Part shown: piece after piece, positions 42,183-63,350 of the stretch
How the letters are laid out: every line of letters begins with the position of its first letter
Numbering within the stretch: position 1 is the stretch's first letter
Source: Pseudovirgaria hyperparasitica
Taxonomy: Eukaryota
Assembly: GCA_010093815.1 (NCBI GenBank)
Contig: ML996573.1
Direction: 5' to 3' (one strand)
DNA: 64,000 nt
Position numbers and translations under genes: made by a program
The notes under the pieces: model-generated
Told to the model about the DNA's origin: nothing
Database searches by the model: none
What the model saw: only the letters and a program-made list of their open reading frames with translations

Positions 42183-43868
42183 CTACGACTCGCGCCGTGA
42201 TACCCAGCCTATGATGCCGTTCACGCGCGCAGTGGCAGGAACCATTGCATCGGCGATACAATCAACGTCCTGCGCGCCGACGTCGTCCTTGAACTTGACG
42301 TCGTAGCGCAGCACGAGCGCTGCAAAGGCCGTGTATATTTCTGCCCAGGCGACGCTGTTGGGGAGGAGGGGAGTTAGCTTTTGGTCTTTTTAAAAAGGTG
42401 TTGTGTGTCTGTCTGTATAACACTGACGGTGTATGTGTATATGTGGAAAGGGGGCGCGACTCACTGCATGCCGATACATATCCGCGTGCCTCTGCCGAAG
42501 CCCGCCCAGAACGGCTTCTTCTCGCCGGGCTTGACGAGCCAGCGCTCTGGGTCGAAGCGTTTGGGATCAGCGTGGATGCTGGGGTCCATGTGCATGTTGT
42601 AGATAGTCATGCTGACGGGCGTGCCGGCGGGGATCTTGAAGCTGTCGGCGTATACGATGTCGCGATCAGGGGCGATGCGGGCGGCGCGCGTGACGAGGCC
42701 GGGGCTCAGGCGCATGCCTTCTGTCAGGACGGCGGTGAGGTAGGGTAATTGTTCGAGTTTGGAGACGGGGTCGGAGAGCGGGTCGACGGCGGAGTCGAGG
42801 AGTTCGGCGCGGAGGGTGTGGAGGATGGAGGGCGTGGTGTAGACGTGGTAGAGCATCATGCGCAGCACGCTGGAGCTTGTTTCGGTGCCGGCACCGACGA
42901 AGACGGAGATGTCCTGCTGGATGCGCATGGGCAGTTTTTCCTCGGGCGGGAGGTCGGAGTCGAGGATGACGTCGATTGCGTTGCGGGCGGCCTTGTTGTC
43001 GGATTGGGCGGCGGTGCCGTGTGTGGTGATGGTGTTGGAGACGATGCTGCGGATTTCGCTGGCGAACTTGAACCATTCCACGAAGGCTGGGTCGGTCTTC
43101 TGCATGAATCTGCTGGGGATCTTCTTCATGAGCTTCATGTAGCCGCGGATGTGCTTTGAGACGCGCCAGATTGCGCCGCCACTCTGGCCGACTTTTGTCA
43201 TTGTCACGTTGAAGGTAGGGTGTTGGAGGAGGCCGTAGGACTTGCCCAGGACAAAGTCTGTAGCGACATCGTATGCCAGTGCTGTGAGTGCTCCACCGAT
43301 GTTGACTGTTGAGCCTGCGGCTGCGGATTCGTCGAGGCGGTCGAGGAGCTCCTTGACGTGTCCTTGGATCATGCCATGCTTGCGGGCGACGCTGGCTTTG
43401 GAGAAGTATGGGTTTACCGGGACGCGACGGCGCCTGTGTAAATCGTGGTCGACGGTGTGGATCGTGGCTCCAGGGCCGTTCAGCGCATCCCAAGCCCAGC
43501 CGTACTTGTTCCAACGGCCATCTTGGCGATAGAGCTTCTCGTAGAAAGCAGGATCGTGAATGTGGATCTCATAGGGACTGATGCGTACGATAGGACCTGT
43601 AGAACGACTCGAGTGTTAGCAGAGTGTTGCGAATGTTCTGAAAGTGGGCATCTCGGCTCTGACCGTATTTCGCATGCAGCTCGCGGAGCTTGAAAGTGTA
43701 TTGACCCTTCTTGACTACGTCATAGTAGGCCTCATAGTATCTTGTGATCGCGGCGATTTTAGGACCTGGAATTCTCGAGAGCGGGTCGAGGAATAGACGG
43801 TAGAAAGCAAGAGCTATGAAATAGAAAGGAAACGACAGCAGTAGGATCTGTATGACTGTGACGATCAT
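42183..43868 (-). CDS. Cytochrome P450 (trichodiene-oxygenase-like class)
   Basis: N-terminal anchor, PLSRIPGPKIAA, I-helix VGAGTET, EGMR, FDPERW, heme loop FGRGTRICIGMH. Two introns. Last exon ends at the stop at 42183-42185. Confidence 0.95.
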
Positions 43869-44868
43869 GTTGAAGGTGTTGTCAAGCTTGAGCAAAGGAT
43901 CAATTCGAGAGTTCAGCCATGCAAGCTTAATGACAATGAAATGCGTGACTTGCGCGGCGCGTGAAGGGTAATTCAGCACTGCTGTTGATCACAAATGTCG
44001 CACGCAAACATGTAGAGCTATAACATACAATTGACGATTACGATACTACGCGTGTCCCACCACACACACACTAAGGTCCATATCGAGATCTGAGTACCCG
44101 TGGACCTGTATAGACTAGACTAGGCAAAGTAAGCAGCTATTCACGGGCGCTAATACGACGATGCGTGATAAGACGACGCTGCATGGGCCGATATATGCAC
44201 ACTTTCGCACACCTGCACAGGGCCCTAGCATGTTACAAATCGCTACATGCACACGCACATAAATACATACATCTGAGTATCAATGCTGAGTCATGGTGTA
44301 TTGATCTGCGGCTTGGGATCTTATTGCGTAAGGCGGTTGTGGCACACTGACTCCAAGCTGGCGGGAGAATCTGCACGGGTAGGCGCAGATGTCAGACCGG
44401 TATGACGAGATGGGCGTAAAAAGTGGGTCGTCACTGCCAGACTATCAGAGTGTGTCACTGCACTATTTCTGTGCGCGTCACCTGACTCGAACTCGATTGG
44501 ACTTGTCCTGCTCCGTATCCAGTACTAAGCATGGGTAAGACAACCTTGAACAACTGGAGACCCGTCGGAAGCTCCCATCCCGCCACTGCGCTCAATGGCG
44601 TCGATAAGCATGCATGCCTAGAATTACTATTACCATCGTTATTATCATTAGATACTGCCGGGCCAAGCAAGTCCTGTTTTTGATTCATTTGCTCACGTCA
44701 TAATAAGTGAGGAGGTGCGCTGGCTGCTGCTGGAGTAGAGGCTCCAGCTGGCGATTCATGCATGCTCTATGCATTGCACTGCCCAGAAGAAAGTTGCAAG
44801 TCATATGTAATTCTATCGTTAACTATAAACAGAAATGAAGAAAAAAAATTAAACCTCTGCACCATTGT

Positions 44869-46116
44869 CTAGCGTCCATCGCCGACAGATGACACCGCGT
44901 ATCCATCTGTGTGCACAATGTCCTTGTGTGACGAGTTGTTGTGATGGACCGAGTCTAGAGGAGCAGGCGAGTCGCTGCGCGTCCCGCCGAATCTGCCCGA
45001 GGTAGGCCGCACACCGAGTGCGAGGTAGGAGTCTTGGCTGCTGGTCGCGCTGAACTTCTCCTTTGACTTGCTGAATATTGATGAGCCAAATGAGCGGATC
45101 GATGCCAGGTTGATCCTCATAATCAGCGATGCGAACGTGGGCACGGAGCCGAGGATGATGACGAGACATTGCTCAGCCACGGCCCATGGCAGGGATTGGA
45201 CTGCGTGGTACTGCGCGTCGGTCTGTTCGCCTGTCGGAGGCTGCGAGAGCACAGTCTTCATGATCGATGCTAGCGCTGTGACCAGGGAGAAGGCCATGAT
45301 GGTGGCAAGACCAATCTTCTTCTTCAGCGGCATCTGTAGTTTCCAGATGATGGCGATGGGGAAGAACGTGTATGTGATGTCTGAGAAGGAGAACATAGCT
45401 GTTACGACGTGTTAGCCTGTGGCTGGTTCAGATGGCCATCTTGATGCGACTCACATTGCACCAGATATGACGAATATAGCTGAATGTTAGGGTTCCATCG
45501 TTTCGCCGGAATCAAGGGGTTCCATAGAGCTTCGACAGGATCTGACTGCGCAAAGATGATGATGATAACCATGATGCCTCCGATGCTCTGCAAGATCGTA
45601 AAAATGATCAAATACACCTTCAGCCATGACTTCCGGTTGAAGATCCTGATGAGAAGGATGGTGATGGATATGCGCGCAAGAATTGAGACGAGAATACCGG
45701 GCACGATGTTGAACCAGACCCATTTCAAGATGTTGACCTGGCCAAAAAGTCAGCGTACATTCATCAATATCCAGGCGCCTGCACTCACTAATTGATTGTA
45801 CGTGAGGTCCAAGTCATGTTTTCCCATTCCATAGGAATATGACACTGTGATGAACGCCTGAGCTGTAATCTGGAGCACCTGCGGAAGTCCGATTAATTGC
45901 TTATTTCTGCTCCAAAGTAGACTAATCACCTACTGTCGCTGCCAACATTATCCAGTCGTCCAGACCTGGACTACTCGGCGCTCTGCTGCGCACGTAGAAT
46001 CGGAATGCTATCACGGGTATACACAGTCCGGTCAACATCCACGTCGTCCCGATGATCAACGGTCCTTTCCCAGGATCGCTGGGATTCACCGGTGGTGGAA
46101 GCATGCTCGGATCCAT
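44869..46116 (-). CDS. PTH11-like integral membrane protein (fungal rhodopsin-like domain, no CFEM)
   Basis: RFYVR..GLDDWIM, YGMGKH, ARISITILLIRIF, SDITYTFFP..IWKLQMPLKKK and EQCLVIILGSVP motifs. Three introns. Confidence 0.9.
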
Positions 46117-46132
46117 TGCGAAGGGAGACCAG

Positions 46133-46133
<1 letters not shown>

Positions 46134-46180
<47 letters not shown>
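46134..46180. repeat. (TG)~23 dinucleotide microsatellite, 17 bp upstream of the PTH11-like ATG
   Basis: Perfect tgtgtg run read directly. Confidence 0.97.
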
Positions 46181-46181
<1 letters not shown>

Positions 46182-47462
46182 GTGGAATTACGAATCGAAC
46201 GATCAGACGGCGACGTCGAAAGTCGGAAGCTCTTTCAAAAGCAACGCATACGTGGATCAAGAACTTGAGATCGTAGGGCGATAGAGCACGTCCCCAGTAC
46301 TGCCTTATAAGAAGCGCGCTTGAAATCGCACCGTATGAAAGAACGTAAAAGGCGCTATAGATATCGACGGTCTCTGAGCGATATCTGGGCTAAATGATGC
46401 TAGGTTGGCGCGGGGCGGGGCGGGCTCGGTGCGTGTGATATGATTAACGTCTCACTACGAAATTAATTAAGGAGCCAGCATCATCCCCGACTAGAGATAG
46501 TTTACGCCGTCTGTAATAACATTGGCGGATAATTGTTTAGAGACATCTAAGCTTGGAAATGATAGGTCATCGAAGACAAAGGATCAGGTCTAGTTCTTTG
46601 TTTAGTGGTAGGTATACCTAGTTATATAGAGAAACACCCAAGCTCTTCTAGTCATAGGTCCTAGTTATCCTCAGCATCACACACTACTCGCTTTAGTAAG
46701 TCCTGGCTCACCAGGAGTACAGATGGATGACTCATCTTCCCAATACATGATAATACATGAAAATACATATATAGACGACTGTATTTCCAAGCCCCTTTGC
46801 AGTGGAATCCGCATCCTCACGCAGGGGCTACCCCACTCATTACTGCAACAATCCCTGACCTGAGAAGTGTTACAACTAATGCGCAATTGATGCTGGATGT
46901 TCCAGGGGGTTCACAGGACGATCAGAGAGTCCCCCGACAGACAGGAAATGTCGCGCTTCAGAATGAGGGACAGTCGATTGCGCCACTGACTGCCCTATTA
47001 TATACAGACGATATGACACGCATAGATGGTGTTTGGGTGAATGAGCCTCTGATCGGCTTCCTACGCCTCCATTTCTGCTGTCGGTCGAGAGATAGCCGTA
47101 ACGTTAGTCGTCGCATCTTGTGGATGATCGACGATTCACTATACTTAAGGTAGTAACCATAAGATGTCAGTGGGGTCACTGGTGTGGCCGCTGCCACTGT
47201 GTGTGTCTGTGTGTGTGGCGTGGCACCAGCCCGCCCGGCCGTGGCCCGCCCCCGCCACATTCTGGCTTCAGTTTGCGCGATGGAGCAGCATCAGCCTTAG
47301 ACCTGTATGACATGTCTTCCAAGGTTGCGCAGTCTTTACCTGAACTCCGGTCCATTGTGTGAGTGCTGTTTTGCTGTCCTCCGAAGATACCGGACATCCT
47401 ACTCGCGGAGGATAGAACTAGAACTATACTGCTAGCTCCTCCGCTAAACGCTCCTTGAAAAC

Positions 47463-49133
47463 ATGTTCTGGCCGGAGCATATATCTACGATCGGCATTCT
47501 CGCCGCTACCCTTTTCCTTCTCCGTGTACTACACTCCTTTGGCCATTTCAAGATTCAGCACACGTTATGGGAGAAGATCGGCGTAGTGGGTGTATCTCCG
47601 GGCGGTGGTATCTTCTCCTGGCTGCTCGCTGTGCTGAAGTCGCCCGTGAAGCTGGATGAATATCTCCAAGATGGCTACGACAAATATTCGAAGCAGGGCA
47701 AGCCGTTTGGACTGCCTACCATGTGGATGGGCGGTTATCTTGTCATCCTACCTCGTTCAATGTTGCACTTTCTGAACAGATCCAGGCAGGAGCTCTCCGG
47801 ATTTAATGCTTTGCTCGAGGGCATCCAATTCAAATACCTCCTTTCAGATCGGGGACGAATCTGGTCCAATCCAATACATTTTGAAGTAACAAACGATTTG
47901 ACATCAAAGGACTTGGCAGTTCTTGCGCCCATCATGATGGAAGAGTTCGAAAATGCATTCCGTACATGCTGGGATGATCCGGGCATGGCCGACAATGGTC
48001 TCATTACTGATGCATTTGCCTCCATGACACGAATCACATCGCGCGTGTCGGTTAGAGTTATGCTTGGACTTCCTATCTGTAGGAATGCAGAGTATATGGA
48101 AGAGTCAATGCGGTACTCCAACTCTATCATGCAGAGCGCAGCTATCATCAATTGTCTCCCACCTTTTATGAGGCCTGTGATAGGAAGACTTCTTGGTCTA
48201 TGGACGCGGCACAACGCGCGGAAAGTACTCAAGTTCATGGTTCCTGTGGTGGAAGAACGACTGCAAAAGCATAAGCAGATGGGTGGCGACGCACACAGCC
48301 AGGTACAGCTATACTTCGTTTCCACTGACTAGGCCATGCGTACTGACTGATAGGTATCGCAGCTCGATATGCTCCAGTCACTGATCCGCGTAGCGCAGAA
48401 CCATGGGCCAGCGGAGTTGGGCGCCGATCGAATAGCTAAACGCGTTCTTGCCCTCAAAACCATGTTCATTTTCGGCATTGGTTGGGTGTTTGCGCAAGCC
48501 GTCTTGGAAATCTACAGCAATCCAGACTGCGCCGATATAGTCCGAACTCTAGAGCAAGAGTGCCGTAGAGTAGCGAGAGAGAATAATGGATTGTCGACAC
48601 GCGAGGCAATCGACAAACTGTACCACGTGGATTCGGCGATCCGGGAATCGATGCGTCTGAATGATGCCTTCCTGCATACTTTGCCTTTCGATGTTGTAGC
48701 AGGCTCACCGATCGAATTGAGCAAAGGTTGGACGATAAGTCCGGGATCACGAGTCCGCATGGCTTACCCAGGACGATTTGTACATTTGGACCCTGACATA
48801 TATCCTGAGCCACGGCGTTTCGATCCGTTCCGTTTCGTGCATAAAGGCGACACTAACAGTTCAGAAGAGTCCGGAGAGGAGGCCATGTCCAAGCAAGAAT
48901 TGCTAACCACGCCTAGCAAGTCGTTTCTTTTCTTCGGCTATGGACGCCACGGCTGTCCTGGCAGATGGTTTGTATCTACGCTGGTGAAACAGGCTTTGAG
49001 CTACGTGGTTCTCAATTACGATGTGGAGGTGACGAATTTGCCGGGCAAGAAGCAGTCCCTGTTGAACTTTGTGCTCCCTCCAATGGAGGCAAGACTACGA
49101 GTGAAGCGGAAAGTATCAGTCTCGACTGAGTGA
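47463..49133 (+). CDS. Cytochrome P450 (ent-kaurene-oxidase-like class) with atypical I-helix
   Basis: N-terminal anchor, GYDKYSK, DSAIRESMR (ExxR), FDPFRF, heme loop FGYGRHGCPGRWF. Intron 48303-48352. Confidence 0.94.
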
Positions 49134-50431
49134 CAGCTCCGGCTGTGATTTAGGGATTGAGTCAGTTGACTCATACTTTTGTGGGGGACACTCTTGCAAC
49201 TGAGAACACTGAGCACAGTGTTGTACCCAAAATTTTGGTGTCACAGGATCATATACTCGGTGGAGACATCGAATGATGATATATCGGACAGAAGTTTGTT
49301 TTGATCACGTGGGGGTCCTGAGCAAATGTGGATGGATAGTATGGCCTCAGGCCCCAGCAAAAAGCCTTCTCGTATCCTCAAAGCTTCGCCAAATTCTATT
49401 TCCACGACATGATGATACATCTTCCATCAACGAACAATATGCCATCTGTGACGGCGCATGTCACCATCAACCGGGATTGATGCACACCAGTCTATTCCAT
49501 GACGAGCAAGTGTTGAATACTGACTCCCTTCATCTCGTCAACATCAGCTTATCTCGAGCTTTTGCTTTTCCCTTTGTGTCTTTGTGTCTGTAAGAAGATC
49601 ACGGTGTCCAATCGCGACGACGCTTCGGAAGCCGAAGATTGATTGATAAGATAACAATGCTGGGCAGTCATCTACTTGTCACACGCCATCGCCCACAAGT
49701 TCTCGAATGGACGGCCGGGCCCGGGGAATGGATGCTTTCATCCTTGTCCCTGTGGTGAAATTGGAATTTTTAGAATGTCAACCCGTTTTGCCGGATTACC
49801 CAGTGTGGCCGTGGATCGGTGAGCAAGTAATACAGCCAGGTCAGGCTGCTAGAAAACGTCATATGAGGCGCGCCGGCTGTGAAGCTGGGAGGTCTGCCCA
49901 GGTGCTCGACAACGACAATAATGATGACACTTACTCCAACAACCAGCCAATGCAACGACTGGATGCAGCATGCAGGGAGTTCTCAGCATCATTTTCCCAC
50001 TCCCAGAGCCGCCCATGAGACAGCGTGATGATCTAGCAGGGGACCATAACGACGATCACAGCGCGGCGTGGGGGCGGGAACACTGGCTGTGTCCACGTTG
50101 ATCATCTCCATGGATCGTTGTTCTCCTAGGGATGTTCCCCCCCCTTTCGAGCTGGCTATTCTACGGAGCATTGTCTCAGATTATAAGGAGTCATCATACC
50201 AATCTCTCCAGATGCCACTACCTCCCGCCAAAAGACCAACAGGAGGACATCGCGTCTACGATCTACGAGCGTTGCCCCGTGTACGCCAGCCGCCGTCATG
50301 GCGGGAAGGAAGCGCACGCCCCTCCCGTTCGAATTCCTTCACTATACTATCGCTCGCATACACGAGCCACCATCCTTCCGACCAGTCCAGCCGGCACTTT
50401 GAGCCCTTAGGACCTAAACCAAACATCCAAC

Positions 50432-52568
50432 ATGTCGAGAAGCGCATCAGATCTTCACGATGATTCTCAGAGTTCTCCACAGGATGAGACGTCCGGGAGA
50501 GCCTCTGACATTGCCGAGGTGGAGAAGCCGCAGCACGGCTCTGTCAGGGAGACGGAATACGTGACTGGCTTCAAGTTGGTGTTGATTGTAGCCAGCATGG
50601 CGCTCGCGTGTTTTCTCATGCTTCTGGATACGATGATCGTCAGTACTGTAAGTCATCTCGGTTGCCACATCCGTCGGAATGCTGTGTTTTGACTGACTTG
50701 TTGATTTAGGCTGTACCACGCATTACAGACACTTTCAACTCCCTTCCAGATGTAGGATGGTATGCAAGCGCGTATCAATTTGGCAGGTACGTACCTGATG
50801 ATGATTCTTTGATCTCCAAGTCCACGATAGCTGACCTCAAGACAGTGCTGCACCTCAGCCCCTGACGGGGAAGATCTATACGCACTTCAACTCCAAGGTT
50901 TGTGTAACCGTGCTGAATGCCAATTGAGTGTTGCATTTGCTCATGATTGCACCACAGTGGACATTCCTGTCGTTTTTCGGCATCTTCGAGCTTGGCTCCA
51001 TCCTCTGTGGGGCAGCCGTGTCGTCAAACATGTTGATAGTCGGTCGTGCGATTGCGGGATTCGGTGCAGCAGGAATCATTAATGGCGCCATCACTATCAT
51101 CTCGAGTTGCGCGCCCCTGGAGAGGCGCCCTGGTGAGTTCTCTCTATTACTTTTTTGCAGGATTGGCAAGTGGCTGACAGAGAATATACAGTCCTCATTG
51201 GTATCACAATGGGTCGTAAGTCGAATCTCAGTTATGAAACTTTCCAGTGTCCTAAGCTTTCTGACTAGTAAATCAACTTGGACTTGTTGCTGGCCCGCTT
51301 ATAGGAGGTGCTTTTACTTCTTACACGACTTGGAGATGGTGTAAGTGCTGAAGTTGCCCCTTTTTGAGTAACCCTTGACTAACGAGGGCTGCTAGGCTTT
51401 TATGTCAATCTCCCTCTAGGAGCATTCACAGCAGCAACACTCGTCCTCGTACGAATCCCTGAGCAAGCCAAGAAGGAGCGTGCGGCTGCTGTCCTGTCCA
51501 AGCTGCACCATTATCTTGATTTGATCGGATTTCTCCTTTTCGCCCCTGCTGTGCTGATGCTTCTTCTTGCTCTTCAGTATGGCGGTAATCAGTACCCCTG
51601 GAGCTCATCTCGCGTCATCGGCCTATTCTGTGGATCCGGCGTGACCTTTATAGTATGGCTATTCTGGAATCGCCATAAGGGCGACGATGCGCTGATTCCT
51701 TGGTACATGATCAGGCAGACCGTCGTCTGGTCGTCGGGGCTCTTCCAAGCGCTCGTGATGTCTGCTGTGTATGGAGCAACGTTCTATTTGCCTCTATATT
51801 TCCAGGCCATTAACAATGCCACACCGGTCCTAAGCGGCGTGTATCTTCTCCCTATGATTCTCCCACAGCTCTTCGCTGCTGGCCTATCTGGAGGTCTAAG
51901 TAAGTTATATCATTGCATTGTCACGGCGTTGCTAAACAGGCTGCAGTCCAAAAATTTGGATATGTCATTCCACTAGCAATTGTTGGTACAATCCTTCTCA
52001 CCGTAGGCAGCGGTTTGTATTCGCTTCTACAGCCATCTAGTCCGACTGGATGGTGGGTTGGCTTCCAGATACTCGCCGGCTTTGGCTCTGGACTGACCAT
52101 GCAGCTGGTAAGTCCACACCTCCCTTCCTGATAATCCTCAGCAGCATTGCCAGACACTAAATCCTACGAAACAAACAGGCTATCCTCACAGTGCAAGCCG
52201 TAATCGGGGAGAGAGATCTCTCGACCGGCATGGCAATCATCATCTTCGCACAGTCCATCGGACCAGCCATATTCCTGGTGATTTTCAACGTCCTTTTCCT
52301 GGCTAGCCTGAACGGCCAGCTCCGAGAATATGCGCCGGGCGCTGATGCGGCAGCGATCGTGCGCGCCGGAGCCACGGGATTCCGCAGGTTCGTTGCAACA
52401 GAAGATTTGGCTGGTGTGCTGGTTGCATATTCCAACAGCGTCGACCGTGTGTTCTACCTTGTTGCTGGGGTTGCTGCGGCTTGCTCTCTTGTGCTCTGGG
52501 GAATGGGATGGCGTGATCTGAGGAAGCCAGAGGAGAAGCCGAAAGAGTCTGAAGGGCAAGTTATTTAG
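50432..52568 (+). CDS. MFS drug/toxin efflux pump, DHA14 family (AflT/GliA-like)
   Basis: [63 protein letters not shown] and YLPLYFQAI motifs. About 8 canonical introns. Confidence 0.95.
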
Positions 52569-54988
52569 AAGTCTTGTTAGTGACGTTGAGCGAGCGTGCG
52601 ATTAGTGTTGATGTAATAGCTTATTTTCGGTTATGATATCCCAAATGCAATCAATTTACTGTGATAGAAACACCTACATGACAAAACATGTGCACTATAA
52701 ATTCATAGCTAGAATCAGAACCTCCTTTCCACGCGATGTTCAGCGTTATCGTCGCAGCGATCTTTCGCCATAAACAAGACGTTTCCAATATGGAAAGCAC
52801 GATTCTGTTCAGGGCAAGCACGCTAGCCAGTAGAAGATATAGCTAAACTCAACCTTTGTCTTCAAGTTTCTCTTTCTTTATCTCTTTACAACACCTTCAT
52901 TCAACACGCATCACTGAATAGTCGCTACTCAGCATATCAAACATGCCCATGTGCGCACACCTGTACACCCGTCTGTAACGTACAGCACGGTACAACACTA
53001 GACCACCTATTCCAGGCAAGTCTTCTCCCTAACCCCCTTAGCGGAGAACCGCGGTACCCCCGGATCCAGCAGCCCGCAACGACGACACAGACACACTACG
53101 CCGAACCGGGCTCATTCGCCGCCCAGGCCACCCACCTGGCCATAAACGGGCAAAGGGGCCAGATGAACGGGCGCTGCTCCGGAGTAATCATGCCGTGCAG
53201 CCGTGCGAGGAGGGCGGAGTATGTGCATACATAGCACACTCAGCCGTCGTTCGTTTCCTACGGAGCATTGCAGATTGCAGGCACGAGGCCGATACCGACA
53301 CCGATGCCATCTGATCGCGATGCAGCAGCTGGACGGAGCGGTTGCATTGCGTCGGCCCAGAACGAAGCCTGTCATCGCGCAGCACTCAGCAGTCAGCAGT
53401 CCGGCAACGAGCAGGCGGTGCAGCGCAAGCTGAGCTGGGCTCGACTGGACTGGGTTGCCTTATCCTTCTCGCAGTGCGACCCTCAGTGGTCGGCTTGATA
53501 CGGAGATACAGATACAGATGCAGCAGATGCAGATGGAGATGCGGATCTGGACTTGCACGGTTGGCCTTGCGCATGTGCATGGCGTGCCGTATCCGACAAA
53601 AGACGGCTCTGGCGATGCTGTGCTATGCTGTGTCTGTCTGTGATTGTGCATGTCTCATTATTCATGCGATCGAGCGGGCGGTAAACAAACTTTGTGACCA
53701 TGCATAGTATTATCTGGATACGTGCATGCAGGGCAAGCGCACGCTGGCAGGCATGTGTAAAAAAGTATATTCGCCCGGCCGGTGGGCAACGGGCAGCGGG
53801 TAAGCGGGCAGGAAACAAGCAATCAAGCAAGTACAGCCGTATATTAAATCTTCAGCACAGTAACAGGAATACCTCTCCGCCGAACGATACCCACAGTCAC
53901 CGCCAACGTGTCTCAGCATATGGTGCTCACTCGCACACTTTCTGCTACTAATTATCCTTCTCCGCTTGTTACCAAGTCGGTAGTCCGCAGTCATCCAGCC
54001 AGTCCACACGCCCTAGGGAGCAGTCATAATGGCACGCTAAAGGGGGAAAGGGGGAGGGGAGGGGGGGAGACAAAGCGCTAACCAGAGGCCGTTCGTTCGT
54101 AAGATCCTTTTCTTCGGAGTGCACCGTGCCGGCTTGAACACTAACGACATAGTATTAGTCTTAACCATGAGCACGAGCACGAGCACGAGCAGCAGCTGTG
54201 GACCTCAGCAGGGCCCGGGCTCCAGCACGACCACGTTGGACACGTTCGTCAATGCACAGACGGACAGACAAAGCCTTGTCCTCCTAGCGTGGGACTCTGT
54301 AGGATTGCGTGAGCGCATGTGCGCGTGCTTGTGGTTCCTGCGCGGGCAGTAGTAAGTATAGGTCAGTGACAGGTGTGGAGAACGAAGGGGGGGACCATAT
54401 AAATTGGAGGGGCTCATGCACTGCGTGGGGAACATACACACATTACATACACACATCCACACATACAACAGAGTGGATCTGGGTGGTAGTGATCCTGAAT
54501 CCTACACTTTAGATTTGACTGAGGGGGGGTACATCGGCAGCTGGGCACGGGAAGGAATGCCTGTGGTTCGTAGTGACGTGTGGCTAGAACTGTCATGGCT
54601 GTGGCGTGGGCTTGATTTTGGTGCCTTGGTGGTTGTGTTGCTGTTGACGGTTGGGTCAGCGCGTATATATGCAGGGCTGGCTGACTGGCCTGCGTCGTGC
54701 TGACTGGACTCGCTGGTTGACTGGCTGGCTATTTGGAGATGAGGTAGGGCGTCGTATGAATGGGTGTAACTGTGACTGTGACTGTGTTGGTAGCCAGGCA
54801 GGCAGCAGCCAGACAGAGGCAGTGTCGTTTAAATGGGTGGAGGTCAAATTTCTGAAGGCTGAGACAGAGCTGAAGACATAAAATGAAGGTAAACAAACCG
54901 TAAACGCATGCACGCACCGTGCCACAGCCATACGAACCATCCAACCCATCACCCATCTATCCACCAAACAGATCTACCCATCTATCAA

Positions 54989-55039
54989 CATCCACAAATC
55001 ATCCACAAATCATCCACAAATCATCCACAAATCATCCAC
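54989..55039. repeat. 11-bp minisatellite (CATCCACAAAT) x ~4.6 just downstream of the O-methyltransferase 1 stop
   Basis: Read directly: catccacaaat repeated four times plus catccac. Confidence 0.92.
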
Positions 55040-55092
55040 CTTCCCTACCAAACCTCAAGAAACCGAATCCCCCCTCCCCTTAACTCCCCAAG

Positions 55093-56913
55093 TCAACACT
55101 CTACCCCCCTCCCCCTCCGCACAACCATAACCCCCTCATACAGCAACGGCGCATACATGTACGTCTCAACCAACTCCAGCCCCGCCTCCGCCAGCGTCTC
55201 ACGCCACTGCGCCTCCGTACGCTCCTGCCCGCCCAGCGCCGCAAGCATCGTCAGATCAATCGCCGCCGCCATCTGGCTCACCCCCGTCTCCGGCAGTATC
55301 ATCTCGTCGACCAGCAGGATCGACTCAGGCCCCATGGCGTCGCGCGTGTGCTCGAGGATGACTCGTCCGCGCGCCGGGCTGTGGTCGTGCAGGATGCCGC
55401 GCATGTAGTAGAATTTTGCGTCTGTATGTGTGTGTGAGTCTTGCTTTAGTTATCTGGACGGTGGATTGTTGTTGTTGTGGTTGTGGTGATAGAGAGAAAA
55501 AAAGGGAGAGACGGAAAAAGGGGGGGCCAGGGGGGGTAGGTGGGCATCATGTTGTATAGACCCAAACAAAAACTCACCCTTAACAGGCTGTTCCTCGAAG
55601 AAATCAAACTCCATATTCACCACGCCCGGCGTCTCCAGCGCGTTCGCGATCGAATGCGGCAGATCCTGCAGTACCACCTCGCCCGTGACATCCGGATACC
55701 GCTCCCTGAACTCGCGGCACTGGTGTCCGATGCCGCCGCCGACGTTCACGTAGACTGCCTTTTGCTTCCTCCCCGCGCTCTCCTTTACCCCCCTGTCCAC
55801 GTCGGGATTCCACCCGCGCACATACCGCGCAACGGGGAAGACAGAGAGCCAGGTAGCGTCGTGGGCGCGCTGGCGGCGCAGGGCCATGTAGTCGTTGAAG
55901 TAGGCGAGGTGGTCCGCGTGCTCGGCGAACCAGGCGAATGCGTCGAGATGGGTGTTCCAGGCGGCTTGGAAGGCGGTGTGGGTTTCGTCGGCGGGGGGTT
56001 GGTAGTTGTTTTGTGCGAGCCAGGCGGGGAGGGCTTCGTATTGGGGGGCGACGGTGTTGAGGCTGGGTTGGGGGTTTGTGAGAAGGGGGGGTTCTTGGAG
56101 GGGGTGTTTGGGTGTGGTGTGTTGTTGTTGTGGTGGTGTGGGAAAGGGGGGGGATGGGGAAGCAAGGACTTACAAGTGTGCTAGGCCGGCCTCGACGGTT
56201 TTGTCGGCGAGGTGGCGTGTTCGTTGGTTGGCGGCATATCGGGTTGGTGATACTTGCGTGATGGCGTCTATGGAGGCGAGATATCTCAATATGCGATCTT
56301 CACGTGGGAGTGTCAGTGTTGGTACAGTACATCAATCAGCATCAGTAGCAGCAGCAGCAGCACTACCACCACATGACATCGCATACACACACAGCAGACC
56401 AATCTCTCAAAGAACAGCCCGCTGTATGTGTATGCGCACGTGTACATGAACGCGTAAAATGTAAAAGTGAAAATGCAAACTCACTCAGCACCAACCCCCC
56501 AGCCCCCGGATTCCGCTCCACAATCCCGTCCACCGACACCGCACCACGCCCTTCCGCCTGCGCCTGAGTCAAAAGCCTAAACACGCCCAGATCGATGCCG
56601 ATTCTGATAGCTGCAGTTTGGAGAGTCTATTCCGCACCCGCAACGCACACCGCCATGATTAGCCAAGTCATCAATTCAATGTTATGTATGTGTGTATGTG
56701 TGTATGCTTGGCGGATATGGGGGGAGCGAGACAGGGAAGGTCGGACCGGGGGCAGGGGGGTCTACTTACCATATGTCCGTACCGGTGGATGACATCGGAC
56801 GGGCTCTCGAGCGATGCGATGAGGCGGGAGAGCGTCCGGAGGAGGAGTTGTCGAGTAGTTTCGAGGGCCGTGTGCGTGTATCCGCCGATAACGCGGCGGA
56901 TTTCTGATATCAT
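55093..56913 (-). CDS. SAM-dependent O-methyltransferase 1 (Methyltransf_2 family)
   Basis: IRIGIDLGVF, RILRYLAS, VNVGGGIGHQC, VLQDLP, FDFFEEQPVK, YYMRGILHDH and GGQERTEAQW motifs. Five exons with long CA/GT-rich introns. Confidence 0.92.
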
Positions 56914-57495
56914 CGTGTTTCTTTGCTGTGCGGAGAAAAGGTGTGGGTGTGTATCTGTTGTCTTCGTGTTTGTTCTGGATGTGTTAAATGTGGATAGTAG
57001 GATTCTTTGTAGGTGTACGTAACACCTGCTGAGATTGGCTTTTCGGGTGGGGAGGAGTTGGTGTTAATTTTGTGTATCTAGGAAGACTAAGACGGCTGAA
57101 ACGAAAAAAATAGGGCTGAAGTGGACCGGGGCAGGTTGACGCGGGTGATCCGGTGCCTGGAGTGGGGTTCTAGATACGTTGTGACATGTCTCACCTTACG
57201 TTAGGAAGAGTCAAGGGGATGACACGTCAAATCCTAAAGGAAGCAACTGAATGTAATAATACTTTGTGGATATCTCTATAGGTAAGAATGGATGGATCAG
57301 ATAGAATCTACACTAGTTCTAGCCCCACCCAATTGCGCCCGAACAATAATAGTAAAGAGACCCAGATAGATTTGCGGAGATCAAGAAGCCGAAAATACAA
57401 ACACACCACAAGGGGGGGGATATATCGCTAATACTACTGATGTACAAAATACGCCTCATAGCCATGCATTCAAAGAAACCAACAAGGATCCATGC

Positions 57496-60402
57496 TCAAA
57501 CATTCCGTGCGTGCAACGCTTCCTTGAGCGTTGCTGCAAACTGCGCCACATGATCGGCCCCAAGCATCGTGTAATGCGCTCCGCCCACAGCATGCAGCCT
57601 GGGAACATCCCTGGAAAAGTCTCTCCACTTGCTGAGATGCTCGTGGACCCATTCCTCCCGCGATGCAGCAGCGTGGCGCAAGGGGATGGCATGGAAAACA
57701 TCGATACTCGCGACTTGTCCGCTAGGCTCATAGTCGACGGCCATGCCTTGCAAGCCGTATGCGACGTCGGCCCAGCGGGTCAGGGCGAGATGATCGAGAC
57801 CCAGCTCCTCTAAGCGTGCCGCGTCTGTGGCGTGCATTACAGTTCCGAGAGCATCGTCCCTATGCGCGCCAGGGTAAGTGCTGCTCTGTTCCATAACTTC
57901 GGCTACTGTGTCTGTGACCAAGCCGAGAAACTGTGCCAGGTGCAGAAGACACATGTTCCAGCTGAGTTGACGCATGCGAGATTTGATATGTGGGGGCAGG
58001 TTAAAGCTTCCGAGAAAGCTGACGGTGCCATGATCCAAGCGTTCCAGCCGTTTTGTGATCTCGAATGCAAGCATTGTTCCATAGCTGTATCCGGCAATGG
58101 CGTAGGGCCCGTGTGGTTGGCGTTGTCTGATCGCCTGAACGTACGTATCGACTGTCGCTTCTATCGAGGAGAACCGCTCGCCACCTTCAAAACCCTTTGC
58201 CCGTAAAGCGTATATCGGACGGTCGTCATCTATCATGTGTTGTGCAAGACCGACGAAGACTAGGACTTCACCCACACCTGGATGAACTAGCCATAGGGGG
58301 GCTTTGTTACCGCTAGATTTCAGTGTTACAACGGGATCGTAGCTGGTACTTATCGTCTTGGATTGCTCCACAGAGGAAGTGACGCTCGCCATATTTGTGC
58401 TGAGTGCTGCTGCCAACTGCCTCGCTGTTGGATTGCGTAGCAGTGTGATGACAGGAACACTGATCTGTAGACTTCTATCCAGATGGCGCTTCAGACGAAT
58501 GAGGTCCATGGACGTGAAGCCAAGTTCAAAGAGCCGTGTCTCCGGGCCAATATTGTCAAGACTAATGTCTAGAGTGTTTGCAAAGCTTTCCATGAGGAGT
58601 AGTTCAGTCCCAGTCCTGGCAGCGTCGGATGACCCTGTCCGCCTCGTCTTTTTCCGGAAGGCATCGAGACGTTGCCGGTGCTCAACAATATCTTCGTCAA
58701 AGCGACCTGAGTCAAACAAGGAGCTCATCTTCGCACGTGATATTTTCCCGAGAGTGGTCATAGGTAGTGATGAGAGGGAGGATCCCATCAGCGAAAAGAC
58801 CGACGGTAGAGCGGAAACGCTGGACATGCATACTTCAGCTGCAAGCTCATCGATTGCAGCCATCTGGGCAGCAGTGTGTGGCGATTCCCTTGGAATATAA
58901 GCGATGGTGATTTGTTCCGTGTGTGCTGCACGCGACGGGAATACGACATAACGTTGCACTTTGCTAGACAGTGCCTGTTCCAGTATTGCATCAATATCCG
59001 CAATGACAATCTTGAGACCATTGATATTGATCACCTCTTTCGACCGACCATTGAGGCACAAGTTCCCCAGATTGTCAATGTAAGCCCGGTCCCCTGTACG
59101 AAACCACCCGTCCTGTGATGGGAATGCGTCCGCGGTCGCTTTGGGATTGCGATAATAGCCCTTGAAAACTATGTCTCCCCTGACCTCAAGATCGCCGGTT
59201 TCGTTCGTAGCTGCAGGGGTGGAGCCAGCAACAACTCGCATTTCGATACCTTTCACGCATTTCCCGAGGCTTGCCACCGTGCGTCCTTGCTGTTCGTCGT
59301 AACGGGGGCACCGGCTGTTGAAGATCGCACCAGCACATGTTTCCGTCATGCCAAACCCCGGAGTTATAACATCGTCTCGAGCTCCGTATCTGCTCAATAG
59401 TTTGGATGCCGCCGAACATGTCCTAATATCATTGGCTTCACCACCAGAAGCAAGAATCTGTAGAGATGAGAGATCCCAACCTCCTCTAAACGTTTGGCGC
59501 TCCATCTCCAGAGTCACGGTCGACGTCAATTTGGCCAGGAAGAAATTTGGGGCAAAGGTACGACATACGCGATGCTTGCTCAAGAGATCCAAGAAGTGAA
59601 TCGGGGATGAAACGACGTCCGCTGCGTTGACATGGATCTGATCGGCACCGAGCCACAATGCTTGAATATGTATCTCCACGAGACTCGCGACGTGATCGAG
59701 TCCTATCCAGTTGAGAAATGATCCTTTCCCTTCGAGCGGCCGAACAGAAGCTTTTCCTGCGATGGCTGAGAGAACCTGCTTGTGCGTTATGCGCACAGCC
59801 TTTGCGTTTCCTGTGCTTCCTGATGTCAGCATCAACATCGCCAGAGCATCGCCCCCAGGATATTGGAAGTGAGCCATTGGTTCGTCCGCGGATGATGCTG
59901 AACCGTCCGAGGCCTGCGATGACGCTGATGAGTCGGCGGACAAATCATCATAGCATAGCGATTCGATTGTGTGTAATTGCAGAAGACCTCGAGAGCCATC
60001 GAAGAGATCCAGCAATCTCTCTCGGGTGATGCATATTGGCGATTGAAGCAGAGACGAGAGCCCGCTAATATGTTGATTACGGTGCTCCTTGATGTTGCTG
60101 AAAGGAGATGAGAGTACTGGCAATCCTTGGGCAAGCGACACGGCCCAGAACCAGACAATTGTTACCCAGTGGTCGTCCAGATGAATGAGTACTGGATGGT
60201 TCCTTCTGAAGGCAGGGGTGGCGCGAAGGATTCGGCCGTAAGAGCTGGCTTGGACAAATAGATCAGAATATGTGAACGACTTTGGTTTTGATGTGTCGCC
60301 AAGTGGGTAGCAAACGATGTCTCCCTTCCTCGTTATGGCCCGGCTACGTAGGATATCCTGGAGACAAGTAGCGGACTGTTTGTACTCGTGCAATACCTGC
60401 AT
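57496..60402 (-). CDS. Single-module NRPS-like enzyme, A-T-TE (atromentin/polyporic-acid/furanone synthetase family)
   Basis: Intronless, about 968 aa from ATG 60402. A domain LTSGSTGNAKAV, WIGLDHVASLVEIH, SGGEAN, GFGMTETCAG, WFRTGD, LGKISR. T domain LFELGFTSMDL. TE domain HPGVGE, GYSYG, GSFNLPPH, GAHYTM. No C domain. Confidence 0.96.
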   Translation of the reverse strand: MQVLHEYKQSATCLQDILRSRAITRKGDIVCYPLGDTSKPKSFTYSDLFVQASSYGRILRATPAFRRNHPVLIHLDDHWVTIVWFWAVSLAQGLPVLSSPFSNIKEHRNQHISGLSSLLQSPICITRERLLDLFDGSRGLLQLHTIESLCYDDLSADSSASSQASDGSASSADEPMAHFQYPGGDALAMLMLTSGSTGNAKAVRITHKQVLSAIAGKASVRPLEGKGSFLNWIGLDHVASLVEIHIQALWLGADQIHVNAADVVSSPIHFLDLLSKHRVCRTFAPNFFLAKLTSTVTLEMERQTFRGGWDLSSLQILASGGEANDIRTCSAASKLLSRYGARDDVITPGFGMTETCAGAIFNSRCPRYDEQQGRTVASLGKCVKGIEMRVVAGSTPAATNETGDLEVRGDIVFKGYYRNPKATADAFPSQDGWFRTGDRAYIDNLGNLCLNGRSKEVININGLKIVIADIDAILEQALSSKVQRYVVFPSRAAHTEQITIAYIPRESPHTAAQMAAIDELAAEVCMSSVSALPSVFSLMGSSLSSLPMTTLGKISRAKMSSLFDSGRFDEDIVEHRQRLDAFRKKTRRTGSSDAARTGTELLLMESFANTLDISLDNIGPETRLFELGFTSMDLIRLKRHLDRSLQISVPVITLLRNPTARQLAAALSTNMASVTSSVEQSKTISTSYDPVVTLKSSGNKAPLWLVHPGVGEVLVFVGLAQHMIDDDRPIYALRAKGFEGGERFSSIEATVDTYVQAIRQRQPHGPYAIAGYSYGTMLAFEITKRLERLDHGTVSFLGSFNLPPHIKSRMRQLSWNMCLLHLAQFLGLVTDTVAEVMEQSSTYPGAHRDDALGTVMHATDAARLEELGLDHLALTRWADVAYGLQGMAVDYEPSGQVASIDVFHAIPLRHAAASREEWVHEHLSKWRDFSRDVPRLHAVGGAHYTMLGADHVAQFAATLKEALHARNV

Positions 60403-61163
60403 AGTTGGGTGATTTTGCAAAAGATGAAGAGATCAAGCGCGAACATAGGGTACGATATAGTCGGAGCCCGATTTCGTGTGCCGCATCATCAATACCAGTA
60501 AGATAACAATCTGTGCTATTACTAGGTATCTGTTTCTGTTGCCTGAGTCCAGATGCTGTTAATAGAAGCGCTGGCTTGCTTCGAGATTGAAAGCCACTAC
60601 GGAGCGAGACTCTTGGACAAGGGGGGGGGGGGGTCCCACCAGTGCTGGACCGGCGCGAAGTAGCACCCACCAGAGGGGCCCTAGTATGCATGTCCAGACA
60701 AAGTAGCGGTGCACCGTGTACGCCTCGTCATCATGTCCGATCCAACATGAATCGCAAATAACGCCATCGGAAAGCGCGAAGCCTGCCATAGGTTGAATAT
60801 CAAGGCCTTGTTCTCTTCGGCTGTGTTGATGAGCCTACACTAGCCTCAAACTGCATACGAAAAGCAATTCTACGGCGTGCTTACCCGTCTGTGGTATGCA
60901 TTCGACTCTTCGTTGCTATCGTCAGCAGCTTTGGCGCCACAAGCAGTGCGGCGCTGAGCAGCGAGAAGTATTGAAGTCTCGTAGAAAACGGCTTAGTCGG
61001 TTTTGTGTTCTTTTTGTCGGCCTCCTTGCTTCATCGGACTAAAAACCACCATCCCCAAGCGCCGTGCAGCTGCCGAAGAACTGCTATTGATATACGCGGC
61101 TTTGTCATCGACCTAGGCTCATCTAAAGTCCGATTGCGTGTAGCCAAGCCTTCATACAACACG

Positions 61164-62627
61164 ATGGGTGCAGGTCAGTCTACACCACGCATTGTAGAGC
61201 TCGCTGCCTCCATAAGCGAAAATGTGGCAAAGATACAAGAGATACTGGACGCTCAAGGCGCTCCAATGCCGTCTTTTGACGAGGACAGTCCGCCTTTGCC
61301 GAAAGAGATCGCAGGTCCTCAACATGCAGTTCTTGACGCTACAGCAGAGTTGCAGGATCTACTGCAAGATCCCATGAATTTTATACACCGGTCCTCGAGA
61401 GTATGTAGATACATTCTGTGTTCAGCTTCGATTTGTTGACACTGCGCAAAAGAGTGACAAACCGGCATGTATCAACACTATTGTACGATTCGATATTGCG
61501 GCGCTGGTCCCTTGTGGAGGGCGAACATCCTTTCAAGATATTAGTAGACAAACTCCCCTGACTGAACAGATGGTGGGGCGAATTGTTCGACACGCTGCCA
61601 CAATGCGGATTTTCAAAGAACCGGAGCCAGGTCAGGTGATGCACACAAAAGCCTCGAAGCTCCTGGCCAACCATGATTTCAGAGACTGGGCACGAACAGG
61701 CATTGAGGAAATGGGACCTGCTGGAGGACGAGTAAGGTGTTTGAACCAGGGAACAGACGCTTGCTAATGCATGAACCTAGCTGGCCGATGCTCTTGAGCG
61801 ATGGCCAGGCTCGCAACACCCCAATCAGACGGTAGGTGAAACAGTCACTTATCCCGGCGCATCTAGCTGATCACCATCCAAGGGGTTTTCTCTGGCGAAC
61901 GATACGAATGATTCGATATACGAAGTCGTAGGGAAAGATCCTTCTCGTGCCGCTCGATTCGGAAGCGCCATGAAAGTCATGACGGCCAGACCCGAATTCG
62001 ATCTGGCATATGGTGTGAACAATTATGATTGGGGCGCTTTGGGCAAAGCTCTCGTTGTGGATGTTGGGGGCAGTAAAGGCCACTTTGCGATCGCCCTTGC
62101 ACGTCGTTATGAGAACCTCCGCTTCATCGTACAGGATATGGCACATATGCTCGGTGACGGCCCTGAAGAGATCTCCGCGGATAGATTGGAATTCATGGCT
62201 CATAGCCTGTTCGATCCTCAAAGCGTTCAGGCAGATGTGTTCATCTTCCGCTGGGTATTTCACAACTGGTCAGATGAGTATTGCGTCCGTATATTGAAGG
62301 CACAGTTACCCTCGATGAAACCAGGCGCAAGGCTTATTCTGCTGGAGGCTATACTGCCAGAGTCAGGGACTGTGGGCTATTGGAAAGAAAGCGAGTTAAG
62401 GTGATTTACACAAGGCCGTGTGCTGCTCATCGAAACTAACATGCATCCACTACAGGTCGCTGGATCTGGAAATGGCATCGACATTCAATGCTAGAGAGAG
62501 GACTCTTTCGGATTGGAAGGCCCTATTCGCGCTAGCAGATCCAGGCTTTGTGCTGAGGAGTGTAGTCGAGCCTGAAGGATCCGCGATGGCTGTCCTCGAA
62601 TTCTTCTGGGAGAGATCATCGGCTTGA
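61164..62627 (+). CDS. SAM-dependent O-methyltransferase 2 (OmtA-like, Methyltransf_2), divergent from the NRPS-like gene
   Basis: RIVELAASI..PSFDED, RIVRHA..IFKEP, VVDVGGSKG, FIVQD, FRWVFHNWSD and NARERT motifs. Four canonical introns. Confidence 0.94.
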
Positions 62628-63350
62628 TGCCCCGACACATGATCTGGTATCTTGCTCTAATATTGCCTCTGCAACACGTCGCAGATTCTCAAGGCAGCTG
62701 TCTGCACTACGCGTGCTCTTAGTACTGTTCGTGTCCAGCATTGGAGTCACGGGAGGGGCGATGAGTGATTGCTAGACTTGATGGCGTGCAATCTATAGAC
62801 CGCAGTGATGAGAAACCTAGAAGCGGGATCAGACGATGTCGGCGTAGACTTTGAAGAGAAACGAAAATCATGCATGGAGCTGAGGGAATAGTGTGTTGGC
62901 AGAATAAGGTGGATAACTGGCTACAGTATATATATCACATCGGGTCTCGGGCTCGGAGATGCTTGGATCTGCGTGCTTCACAACAGTTGGGTGGCTGGAT
63001 ACTACGTTATAACATTTGTTCAAGTTGAGGTTAGAGAAAGATGCAGTGTGGCTTGTGACTTGTGGCGTGAGATCTGCGTGGCGCACCACAGCATCCACAA
63101 CAAAGGCAGCTAGGGAACTGGGCACCTCAGGCATCATCCATCCAGGGCAGCTGCCACCCACCTGGGCACCACCCTGCAGTTGCGCATTATGACGTAGCGG
63201 ACATCCAAAACAAACTCATTCAAAACAACCGGGATATTTGCAAGTCGCAATACGATATTCCAACCTCTTCATTCCCAACTGCCCCAATCTTCCCCCGTTA
63301 ACACCTTCCATCCATACAATCAACATCAACATCGTCATTGAAAGATCAAC

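What the first reader, a model, noticed from the sequence alone, without database searches (positions are those of the whole stretch)
42183..62627. Intact NRPS-like (A-T-TE) cluster with an unusual tailoring set: candidate new terphenylquinone-type pathway
Seen: an A-T-TE enzyme with no C domain, two OMTs, two P450s, an efflux pump and a PTH11-like protein, all with canonical splice sites and no lesions I could find. Known: Val in place of the amino-binding Asp (LDHVA) marks alpha-keto-acid-activating A domains. This family (AtrA, TdiA, MicA, PgnA, BtyA, AcyN types) dimerises phenyl-, 4-hydroxyphenyl- or indole-pyruvate. The TE has Ser (GYSYG), Asn (GSFNLPP) and His (GAHY), the triad usually associated with quinone- rather than furanone-forming members. 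Inference: a polyporic-acid/atromentin core is hydroxylated, O-methylated twice and possibly oxidatively cyclised. No aminotransferase, reductase, dioxygenase, prenyltransferase or transcription factor lies inside the cluster. That differs from the related clusters I know, so the product may be undescribed.
Basis: partly seen in the sequence, partly recalled or inferred. Interest (0 to 1): 0.8.

Follow-up and report, generated by a model that had tools for sequence, protein, structure and literature searches.

The report
Fungal aryl-pyruvate dimer gene cluster
A rust-parasitising fungus has an intact, transcribed set of seven genes that most likely joins two tyrosine-derived acids into a pigment-like aromatic molecule and decorates it; similar untested clusters are common in moulds, and its most unusual part is a cytochrome P450 that lacks the usual oxygen-activating residues.

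Summary
Seven intact genes lie at 42183-62627 (A-T-TE synthetase, two O-methyltransferases, two P450s, MFS pump, rhodopsin-domain protein), and spliced contigs of one sample cover them. Source labels name Pseudovirgaria hyperparasitica.

The gene set is less unusual than claimed. Untested A-T-TE clusters with several methyltransferases, up to four P450s and mostly no aminotransferase were described in Hypoxylaceae (PMC8403587), and six of the seven gene types recur together in locus L014.

The thioesterase Asn does not discriminate (120 of 120 homologues; furanone-forming MelA was mispredicted from it). Specificity position 5 is Ala, which points to 4-hydroxyphenylpyruvate. The core is probably atromentin (0.5) rather than polyporic acid (0.2) or a furanone/butyrolactone (0.2).

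Two additions. P450b belongs to a clade that lost the I-helix acid-alcohol pair; 7 of its 20 looked-up relatives match a synthetase's contig length. A quinone-reductase-like gene lies just outside the window, so 'no reductase' may depend on the border.

No characterised match was found in ten searches of open literature. Verdict: new, untested member of a known cluster kind.

The parts
42183..43868 (-). P450a, 502 aa, 3 exons; trichodiene-oxygenase-like annotation, canonical I-helix (AGTETS) and heme Cys motif; likely conventional hydroxylase
   Evidence: contig cover
44869..46116 (-). Fungal rhodopsin-domain (PTH11-like) membrane protein, 361 aa, 4 exons; role unknown, recurs beside A-T-TE genes
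   Evidence: homologue in L014; same Pfam family in L015, L036, L050
47463..49133 (+). P450b, 536 aa, 2 exons (intron 48303-48362); ent-kaurene-oxidase-like fold neighbours; ExxR and heme Cys kept, I-helix acid-alcohol pair replaced by Phe317-Gly318
50432..52568 (+). MFS efflux pump (TRI12-type hit), 556 aa, 9 exons
   Evidence: all 8 introns seen as joints
55093..56913 (-). OMT1, Methyltransf_2 family, 407 aa, 5 exons; nearest solved structure LepI; Asn in place of the motif-I Asp, His-Asp kept where LepI has Arg-Asp
57496..60402 (-). Non-reducing NRPS-like synthetase A-T-TE, 968 aa, no intron; V238 (code 1), A318 (code 5), S631 (carrier), S773-N801-H943; only A-T-TE match of this kind in the genome search
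60403..61163 (.). 761-bp divergent spacer shared by the synthetase and OMT2; the head-to-head pair recurs in L013 and L025
61164..62627 (+). OMT2, Methyltransf_2 family, 418 aa, 5 exons; canonical SAM motif; nearest solved structure GedA

Best explanation
The synthetase adenylates two molecules of 4-hydroxyphenylpyruvate taken from general tyrosine metabolism, loads them on its carrier serine, and the thioesterase condenses them to the terphenylquinone atromentin. OMT2 and OMT1 O-methylate ring or phenolic hydroxyls. P450a hydroxylates an aryl ring. P450b does a less conventional oxidation of the polyhydroxylated product, such as epoxidation or C-O/C-C ring closure. The MFS pump exports the compound, perhaps a pigment or antifungal of this rust mycoparasite. 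Shown: gene integrity, domains, splicing, co-occurrence in other fungi, the residues named. Inferred: substrate (one code residue), quinone core (gene context of relatives), every tailoring step, their order, and the ecological role.
For: Domain set and Val238. Ala318 at code position 5: the legend of Fig. S1 of PMC10316625 assigns Phe/Ala/Leu to ascomycete 4-HPP enzymes, Val/Ile to phenylpyruvate and Asp to indolepyruvate; a register slipped by one gives Leu317, also in the 4-HPP set. My register fits internal controls: Asp loci L030 and L047 carry a prenyltransferase, L030 also an aminotransferase-like gene (read by eye); Ile locus L017 carries DAHP synthase and prephenate dehydratase; 78 of 80 bacterial loci have Ile/Val. 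For a quinone core: Ala5 loci L015 and L026, sister to this clade at support 80, hold separate homologues of both OMTs plus an NAD_binding_2 reductase, and L015 a GST. That resembles the predicted rickenyl cluster and the alf/ucd reductive route, which acts on quinones. Hypoxylaceae enzymes of this type group with RicA in the published tree. P450 hydroxylation of a terphenylquinone has precedent (MO6277).
Against: No characterised enzyme could be placed in my tree. The 4-HPP rule for ascomycetes rests on four Aspergillus terreus enzymes, of which one makes a quinone and three a furanone or butyrolactone. Position 5 relaxes but does not strictly set specificity. The triad is uninformative. RicA itself is only predicted. 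The most complete syntenic relative, L014, has Ile5, so the same tailoring set may act on a phenylpyruvate dimer. Co-expression was not shown: contig depth cannot rank genes and the data are one sample. No over-represented palindromic or CGG motif stood out in five promoter regions.
Confidence: 0.5

Rival explanations
1. The synthetase uses phenylpyruvate and makes polyporic acid; P450a adds aryl hydroxyls (as MO6277 does in ascocorynin), the OMTs methylate, and P450b cyclises or epoxidises. Excludes the best explanation.
For: L014 has six of the seven gene types and Ile5. Within the clade, position 5 varies (Ala 84, Val 14, Ile 11, Thr 9, Asn 1, unread 1 of 120). Two P450s are easier to justify on an unhydroxylated core (inference). 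Precedent.
Against: This enzyme has Ala, not Val/Ile. No DAHP synthase or prephenate dehydratase is clustered, unlike acy, alf and L017.
Confidence: 0.2
2. The thioesterase closes a furanone or butyrolactone (aspulvinone E or butyrolactone IIa type) from 4-hydroxyphenylpyruvate, which is then methylated and oxidised. Excludes the best explanation.
For: Three of the four ascomycete 4-HPP enzymes listed make such cores. MelA was mispredicted as a quinone synthetase from its TE residues. btyA shares a bidirectional promoter with a methyltransferase, as this synthetase does with OMT2.
Against: Sister loci carry a reductase of the kind used on quinones (the link of AlfC to NAD_binding_2 rests on my recall of its listed BLAST hit). 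The published tree puts most Hypoxylaceae enzymes with RicA and only one with the furanone synthetase MicA.
Confidence: 0.2
3. The cluster is larger than drawn: the MDR oxidoreductase at G000:C9:622987-623907 reduces the quinone to its leuco form, which the OMTs lock by methylation, giving rickenyl-like O-methylated terphenyls. Compatible with the best explanation; it changes the end product.
For: Best solved-structure hit is a quinone oxidoreductase and best NCBIfam hit is the PIG3 family, below cut-off. It is 38% identical over 275 aa to the reductase beside the prenyltransferase in terrequinone-type loci L030 and L047. One match in the genome. It lies two genes from OMT2.
Against: An EI24-family gene intervenes and a splicing-factor gene follows, so this may be the ancestral neighbourhood. 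Homologues occur in only 2 of 80 metagenome loci, both Asp5, and in none of the Ala5 loci or L014, though flanks were at most 10 kb. Its expression was not examined.
Confidence: 0.25
4. One or both odd enzymes do not do what their family name says: OMT1 may be a non-methylating helper or cyclase, and P450b may be a poorly coupled or non-oxygenating enzyme. The product would then carry fewer methyl groups or oxygens. Compatible with any core.
For: OMT1's nearest solved structure is LepI, which I recall as a SAM-dependent pericyclase, and it has Asn for the motif-I Asp. The tdi pathway uses a chaperone-like TdiE. Loss of the conserved Thr abolishes efficient hydroxylation in P450cam T252A (PMC9112060).
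Against: OMT1 keeps His-Asp where LepI has Arg-Asp. OMT1 homologues recur with OMT2 homologues in L014, L015, L025, L026 and L061. P450b keeps ExxR, the heme Cys and a confident P450 fold, and its clade is widespread.
Confidence: 0.2

Closest known systems
Predicted rickenyl (ric) cluster of Hypoxylon rickii and the related terphenyl-type clusters of Hypoxylaceae (PMC8403587, section 23 read)
   Same: A-T-TE core, two or more O-methyltransferases, usually no aminotransferase; some members carry up to four P450s. Hypoxylon enzymes are among the close homologues (up to 67% identity).
   Different: ric encodes the oxidoreductase RicF and, as described, no P450; here there are two P450s and no reductase inside the borders. 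None of these clusters was tested experimentally in that paper.
ucd cluster, uscandidusins, Aspergillus ustus (seen only as described in PMC12105029)
   Same: 4-HPP to atromentin, dimethylation, hydroxylation, dibenzofuran formation.
   Different: ucd has an aminotransferase, the reductive dehydratase UcdB and a prenylation step; ring closure there is spontaneous. This cluster has no such genes inside its borders.
alf cluster, allantofuranone (PMC12105029, parts 1-2 of 6 read)
   Same: A-T-TE plus O-methyltransferase, with later oxidative remodelling of the ring.
   Different: AlfA uses phenylpyruvate; alf has DAHP synthase, reductase AlfC, dioxygenase AlfB and a transcription factor, and no P450.
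Ascocorynin pathway, AcyN plus P450 MO6277 (PMC9047271, parts 1-2 and passages read)
   Same: A P450 hydroxylates a terphenylquinone made by an A-T-TE enzyme.
   Different: The P450 is unclustered, there is no methyltransferase in the described cluster, and the substrate is phenylpyruvate.
Terrequinone (tdi) cluster
   Same: A-T-TE architecture; the reductase just outside this window resembles the reductase of tdi-type loci (38%).
   Different: Asp at position 5, indolepyruvate substrate, prenyltransferase and aminotransferase: none is present here.

Membership tests
Non-reducing NRPS-like (A-T-TE) synthetases | A, T and TE domains, no condensation or reductase domain | tested here: met
Non-reducing NRPS-like (A-T-TE) synthetases | Val at specificity position 1 (keto-acid activation) | tested here: met
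   V238
Non-reducing NRPS-like (A-T-TE) synthetases | Carrier Ser and TE Ser/Asx/His present | tested here: met
   S631, S773, N801, H943; matches the NPS3 motifs quoted
Non-reducing NRPS-like (A-T-TE) synthetases | Dimerises an aromatic keto acid | not testable with these tools
   needs expression or an assay
Atromentin synthetases (ascomycete) | Position 5 of the code in the 4-HPP set (Phe/Ala/Leu) | tested here: met
   A318; register anchored on recalled GrsA numbering and checked on internal controls; only the figure legend was seen
Atromentin synthetases (ascomycete) | Quinone-forming thioesterase | tested here: inconclusive
   Asn is near-universal and mispredicted MelA
Atromentin synthetases (ascomycete) | Groups with characterised AtrA in a tree | not testable with these tools
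   characterised sequences were not retrievable; the tree has none
Polyporic acid synthetases | Val/Ile at position 5 | tested here: not met
   Ala318; the rule is not strict
Terrequinone-type clusters | Asp at position 5; clustered prenyltransferase and aminotransferase | tested here: not met
ric-type terphenyl clusters | Several O-methyltransferases beside the synthetase | tested here: met
ric-type terphenyl clusters | Clustered NAD(P)-dependent reductase | tested here: inconclusive
   none inside the borders; candidate two genes outside
Conventional P450 monooxygenases (P450b) | P450 fold, ExxR, heme Cys | tested here: met
Conventional P450 monooxygenases (P450b) | I-helix acid-alcohol pair | tested here: not met
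   Phe317-Gly318; Thr or Ser in 95 of 125 aligned rows at that column

The most novel reading that the evidence does not exclude
P450b defines a fungal P450 subfamily dedicated to A-T-TE clusters that dropped the acid-alcohol pair because it performs a non-standard step on the hydroxyquinone: nucleophilic epoxidation leading to ring contraction, or oxidative C-O/C-C ring closure with the substrate's own hydroxyls supplying protons. It would be a clustered enzyme for a terphenylquinone rearrangement of a type still described as enigmatic or spontaneous, in a cluster family spread over dermatophytes, Sordariales, Xylariales and other ascomycetes.
Probability: 0.25. Interest if true: 0.65.

Novelty: new member of a known kind. 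Interest (0 to 1): 0.36.

Why it matters
Chemistry downstream of A-T-TE enzymes is mostly unstudied (PMC8403587), and routes to involutin, thelephoric acid and variegatic acid are called enigmatic (PMC12105029). This compact, intact, transcribed cluster, built on the genome's only synthetase of the kind, is a cheap way into a large untested clade whose closest members are in Microsporum, Trichophyton, Metarhizium, Hypoxylon and Chaetomium. One reconstitution would assign a product class to many clusters, test whether Ala at position 5 means 4-hydroxyphenylpyruvate outside Aspergillus, and show what a Thr-less P450 does. The product might bear on how this fungus parasitises rusts, which is inference only. 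The cluster itself would not surprise a specialist.

Tried and rejected
Triad as predictor of a quinone: rejected. Hidden transcription factor or other gene inside the cluster: no complete six-cysteine motif in the intergenic regions, and 0 of 78 frames with a Pfam hit. Shared promoter motif: three weak candidates at about threefold over background, not pursued. AlfC/UcdB-type reductase acting from elsewhere: one genome match, next to what reads as an acetylglutamate synthase gene (my reading), so probably housekeeping. Dedicated aminotransferase: two weak unlinked matches. Betulinan as product: the search listed 10 papers, none on a fungal betulinan cluster by title or abstract start, and Ala5 argues against a phenylpyruvate core. 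Locus tags of dermatophyte homologues: 0 occurrences in the 23 listed papers, though the search joins such tags and may miss them. Word-based search for P450b relatives found only itself; the HMMER search found them. No run was on record as RNA; the spliced joints were seen on laying. More flank of L014 could not be had. ESM Atlas gave only family-level names. Earlier scan findings: nothing by place, by sequence or by the first word search; one unrelated chytrid cluster. The careful tree for P450b did not finish; the quick tree was used. No complex prediction was run.
Full report
OBSERVATION. The region holds seven genes as stated. After correcting my first trial models, all seven translate without internal stops using GT-AG introns. 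Pfam gives the expected families and no condensation domain. A search of the genome found one full-length match, the gene itself; the other 25 matches were partial and far weaker (best E 3e-17). Database labels on the identical P450 proteins name Pseudovirgaria hyperparasitica, described as a mycoparasite of rust sori (PMC3317363, passages).

TRANSCRIPTION. Two runs from one sample, kept as contigs and not on record as RNA, were laid on 42700-62699. They show joints that match 14 of the 21 introns modelled in that stretch: all 8 of the pump, all 4 of OMT2, 2 of 4 of OMT1. Adjoining pieces of one contig skip 60 bases at the P450b intron. Pieces end at or near intron edges of P450a and the rhodopsin-domain gene. 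Eight joints were not displayed. The genes are therefore transcribed and spliced in that sample. Depth cannot rank genes, so co-regulation is not shown.

BORDERS. No Pfam family was found in 78 intergenic frames. On the left lie a long proline-rich gene, a phosphotransferase-like gene and, at about 34.3-36.7 kb, a Zn2Cys6 gene. On the right lies an EI24-family gene, then, outside the window, an MDR oxidoreductase at G000:C9:622987-623907, then a splicing factor. The oxidoreductase has one match in the genome, its best structural hit is a quinone oxidoreductase, and it is 38% identical to the reductase next to the prenyltransferase in terrequinone-type loci L030 and L047. It was found in 2 of 80 metagenome loci, neither of the type studied here. 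I give it about one chance in four of belonging.

THE SYNTHETASE. 1549 proteins matched at E 1e-100 and 120 were listed; the closest are 59-67% identical and come from Microsporum, Trichophyton, Hypoxylon, Paraphoma, Chaetomium, Apiospora and Metarhizium. Names such as 'TdiA' on them are automatic. In a FastTree of 59 rows (38 of the 120 proteins and 21 loci chosen by me) the enzyme sits in a clade of 39 rows with support 100; no characterised enzyme could be included. The thioesterase Asn is present in 120 of 120 proteins, 39 of 40 readable metagenome loci and 72 of 72 readable bacterial loci. MelA, a furanone synthetase, was first thought to make a quinone from these residues (bioRxiv 10.1101/2020.03.25.008516, section 18 and passages). 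The triad therefore does not decide the ring type.

SUBSTRATE. PMC10316625 (passages, and parts of two supplements; the alignment figure is a picture and only its legend was seen) reports that code position 5 tracks the substrate: Val/Ile phenylpyruvate, Asn or in ascomycetes Phe/Ala/Leu 4-hydroxyphenylpyruvate, Asp indolepyruvate. I placed position 5 on the residue before SGGE from recalled GrsA numbering and checked it on the data. Asp loci carry tryptophan prenyltransferases. An Ile locus carries DAHP synthase and prephenate dehydratase. Of 80 bacterial loci 78 have Ile or Val. This enzyme has Ala318, as do 84 of 120 homologues. The rule is soft: exchanges relaxed but did not switch specificity, and the four ascomycete 4-HPP enzymes behind it make atromentin (one), aspulvinone E (two) and butyrolactone II (one).

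RING TYPE. The best argument for a quinone is context. L015 and L026, both Ala5 and sister to the clade at support 80, carry separate homologues of OMT1 and OMT2 and an NAD_binding_2 reductase; L015 also has a GST and a rhodopsin-domain gene. This resembles the predicted rickenyl cluster and the AlfC/UcdB step, which reduces terphenylquinones. That AlfC belongs to this Pfam family is my recall of its listed BLAST hit, not a test.

THE GENE SET RECURS. Of 80 metagenome loci, L014 carries OMT2 (partly), OMT1, P450a, the rhodopsin-domain gene, P450b and the synthetase in 14 kb; it is the only one with a P450b homologue, none of the fungal-looking loci showed the pump, and it has Ile5. Both OMT types occur together in 5 of 80 (L014, L015, L025, L026, L061). 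Six of those twelve... more exactly eight are megabase contigs, where the proxy is weak. Of 20 P450b relatives looked up (of 150 listed), 7 match a synthetase contig, all under 0.51 Mb, and 5 more match only a P450a relative; in Trichophyton tonsurans the tags are six apart. Misses are inconclusive because only 120 of 1549 synthetases were listed. PMC8403587 (section 23, part 1, and passages) already reported such clusters: several O-methyltransferases, mostly no aminotransferase, up to four P450s, products unverified. The architecture is thus described in silico.

P450b. Its best relative is 44% identical. The AlphaFold model is a confident P450 (pLDDT 87.7) with ExxR and the heme cysteine. 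At the I-helix column where 95 of 125 aligned rows have Thr or Ser, it has Gly318, preceded by Phe in place of the usual His or acid. In a quick tree of the 60 closest rows, 12 Thr-less proteins form a clade (support 99) inside a 19-member clade (support 100) that holds every co-located relative placed in the tree. Five of the ten other members of the Thr-less clade that I looked up match a synthetase contig; two of the misses lie on contigs of 7 kb or less. Thr is also absent in scattered distant rows (30 of 125 in all), so the loss is not unique. Removing this Thr from P450cam favours epoxidation over hydroxylation (PMC9112060, passages), and epoxidation of polyporic acid is the proposed entry to ring-contracted phlebiopsins (legend of Fig. 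S5). I recall natural Thr-less P450s that use substrate hydroxyls for proton delivery; I did not verify this in a call. What P450b does is inferred, not shown.

METHYLTRANSFERASES. OMT2 has canonical motifs and its nearest structure is GedA. OMT1 is nearest to LepI, has Asn for the first acidic SAM-motif residue, and keeps His-Asp. It is probably active, but two genes do not prove two methylations.

MECHANISM AND ODDS. Core: atromentin 0.5, polyporic acid 0.2, furanone or butyrolactone 0.2, other 0.1. Then O-methylation, aryl hydroxylation by P450a, an unusual oxidation by P450b, and export. If the outside reductase belongs, the end products would be methylated terphenyls of the rickenyl type.

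NOVELTY. Ten searches of open PubMed Central and bioRxiv papers showed no characterised cluster with this set and no listing on this P450 clade. Subscription papers, including the primary ucd paper, and MIBiG were not searchable, and the preprint's supplements were not seen, so a characterised match cannot be excluded. Other papers seen as passages: PMC4205913, PMC9603100, PMC9979454, PMC5523082. Verdict: a real, intact, expressed member of a known and widespread cluster kind with an unknown product. The Thr-less P450 is the part worth following.

Noticed in passing
G000:C9:622987-623907 (L011 1987-2907), just right of the window: Single-match MDR/quinone-oxidoreductase-like gene two genes from OMT2, 38% identical to the reductase of terrequinone-type loci; possible eighth cluster gene.
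   Followed up: partly
window 52549-52677: One run shows a 129-base joint with CT..AC ends over the 3' end of the MFS gene, which suggests a spliced antisense transcript.
   Followed up: no
window about 34300-36726 (+): Zn2Cys6 transcription-factor gene 5.5 kb left of P450a, separated by two unrelated genes; a possible but unshown regulator.
   Followed up: no
window 55093-56913: OMT1 has unusually long introns (111-187 bases) full of simple repeats and GC-rich exons, unlike most genes of the cluster; P450a's second exon is also GC-rich.
   Followed up: no
window 60621: A one-base difference in the G run of the synthetase/OMT2 spacer in one run's contig; non-coding.
   Followed up: no
L015, L036, L050, L014 (Pfam); L032, L035, L043 (tblastn): Fungal rhodopsin-domain genes recur within 10 kb of A-T-TE synthetases, which suggests a recurring accessory role.
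   Followed up: partly
window 29530-31155 (+): Long cysteine- and proline-rich repetitive open frame with a signal-peptide-like start and no Pfam hit.
   Followed up: no
window 23991-26242 (-): GT2 glycosyltransferase-like membrane gene near a sugar transporter.
   Followed up: no
L017: A-T-TE locus with Ile at position 5 clustered with DAHP synthase, prephenate dehydratase, two methyltransferases and a P450: a self-supplying phenylpyruvate cluster.
   Followed up: no
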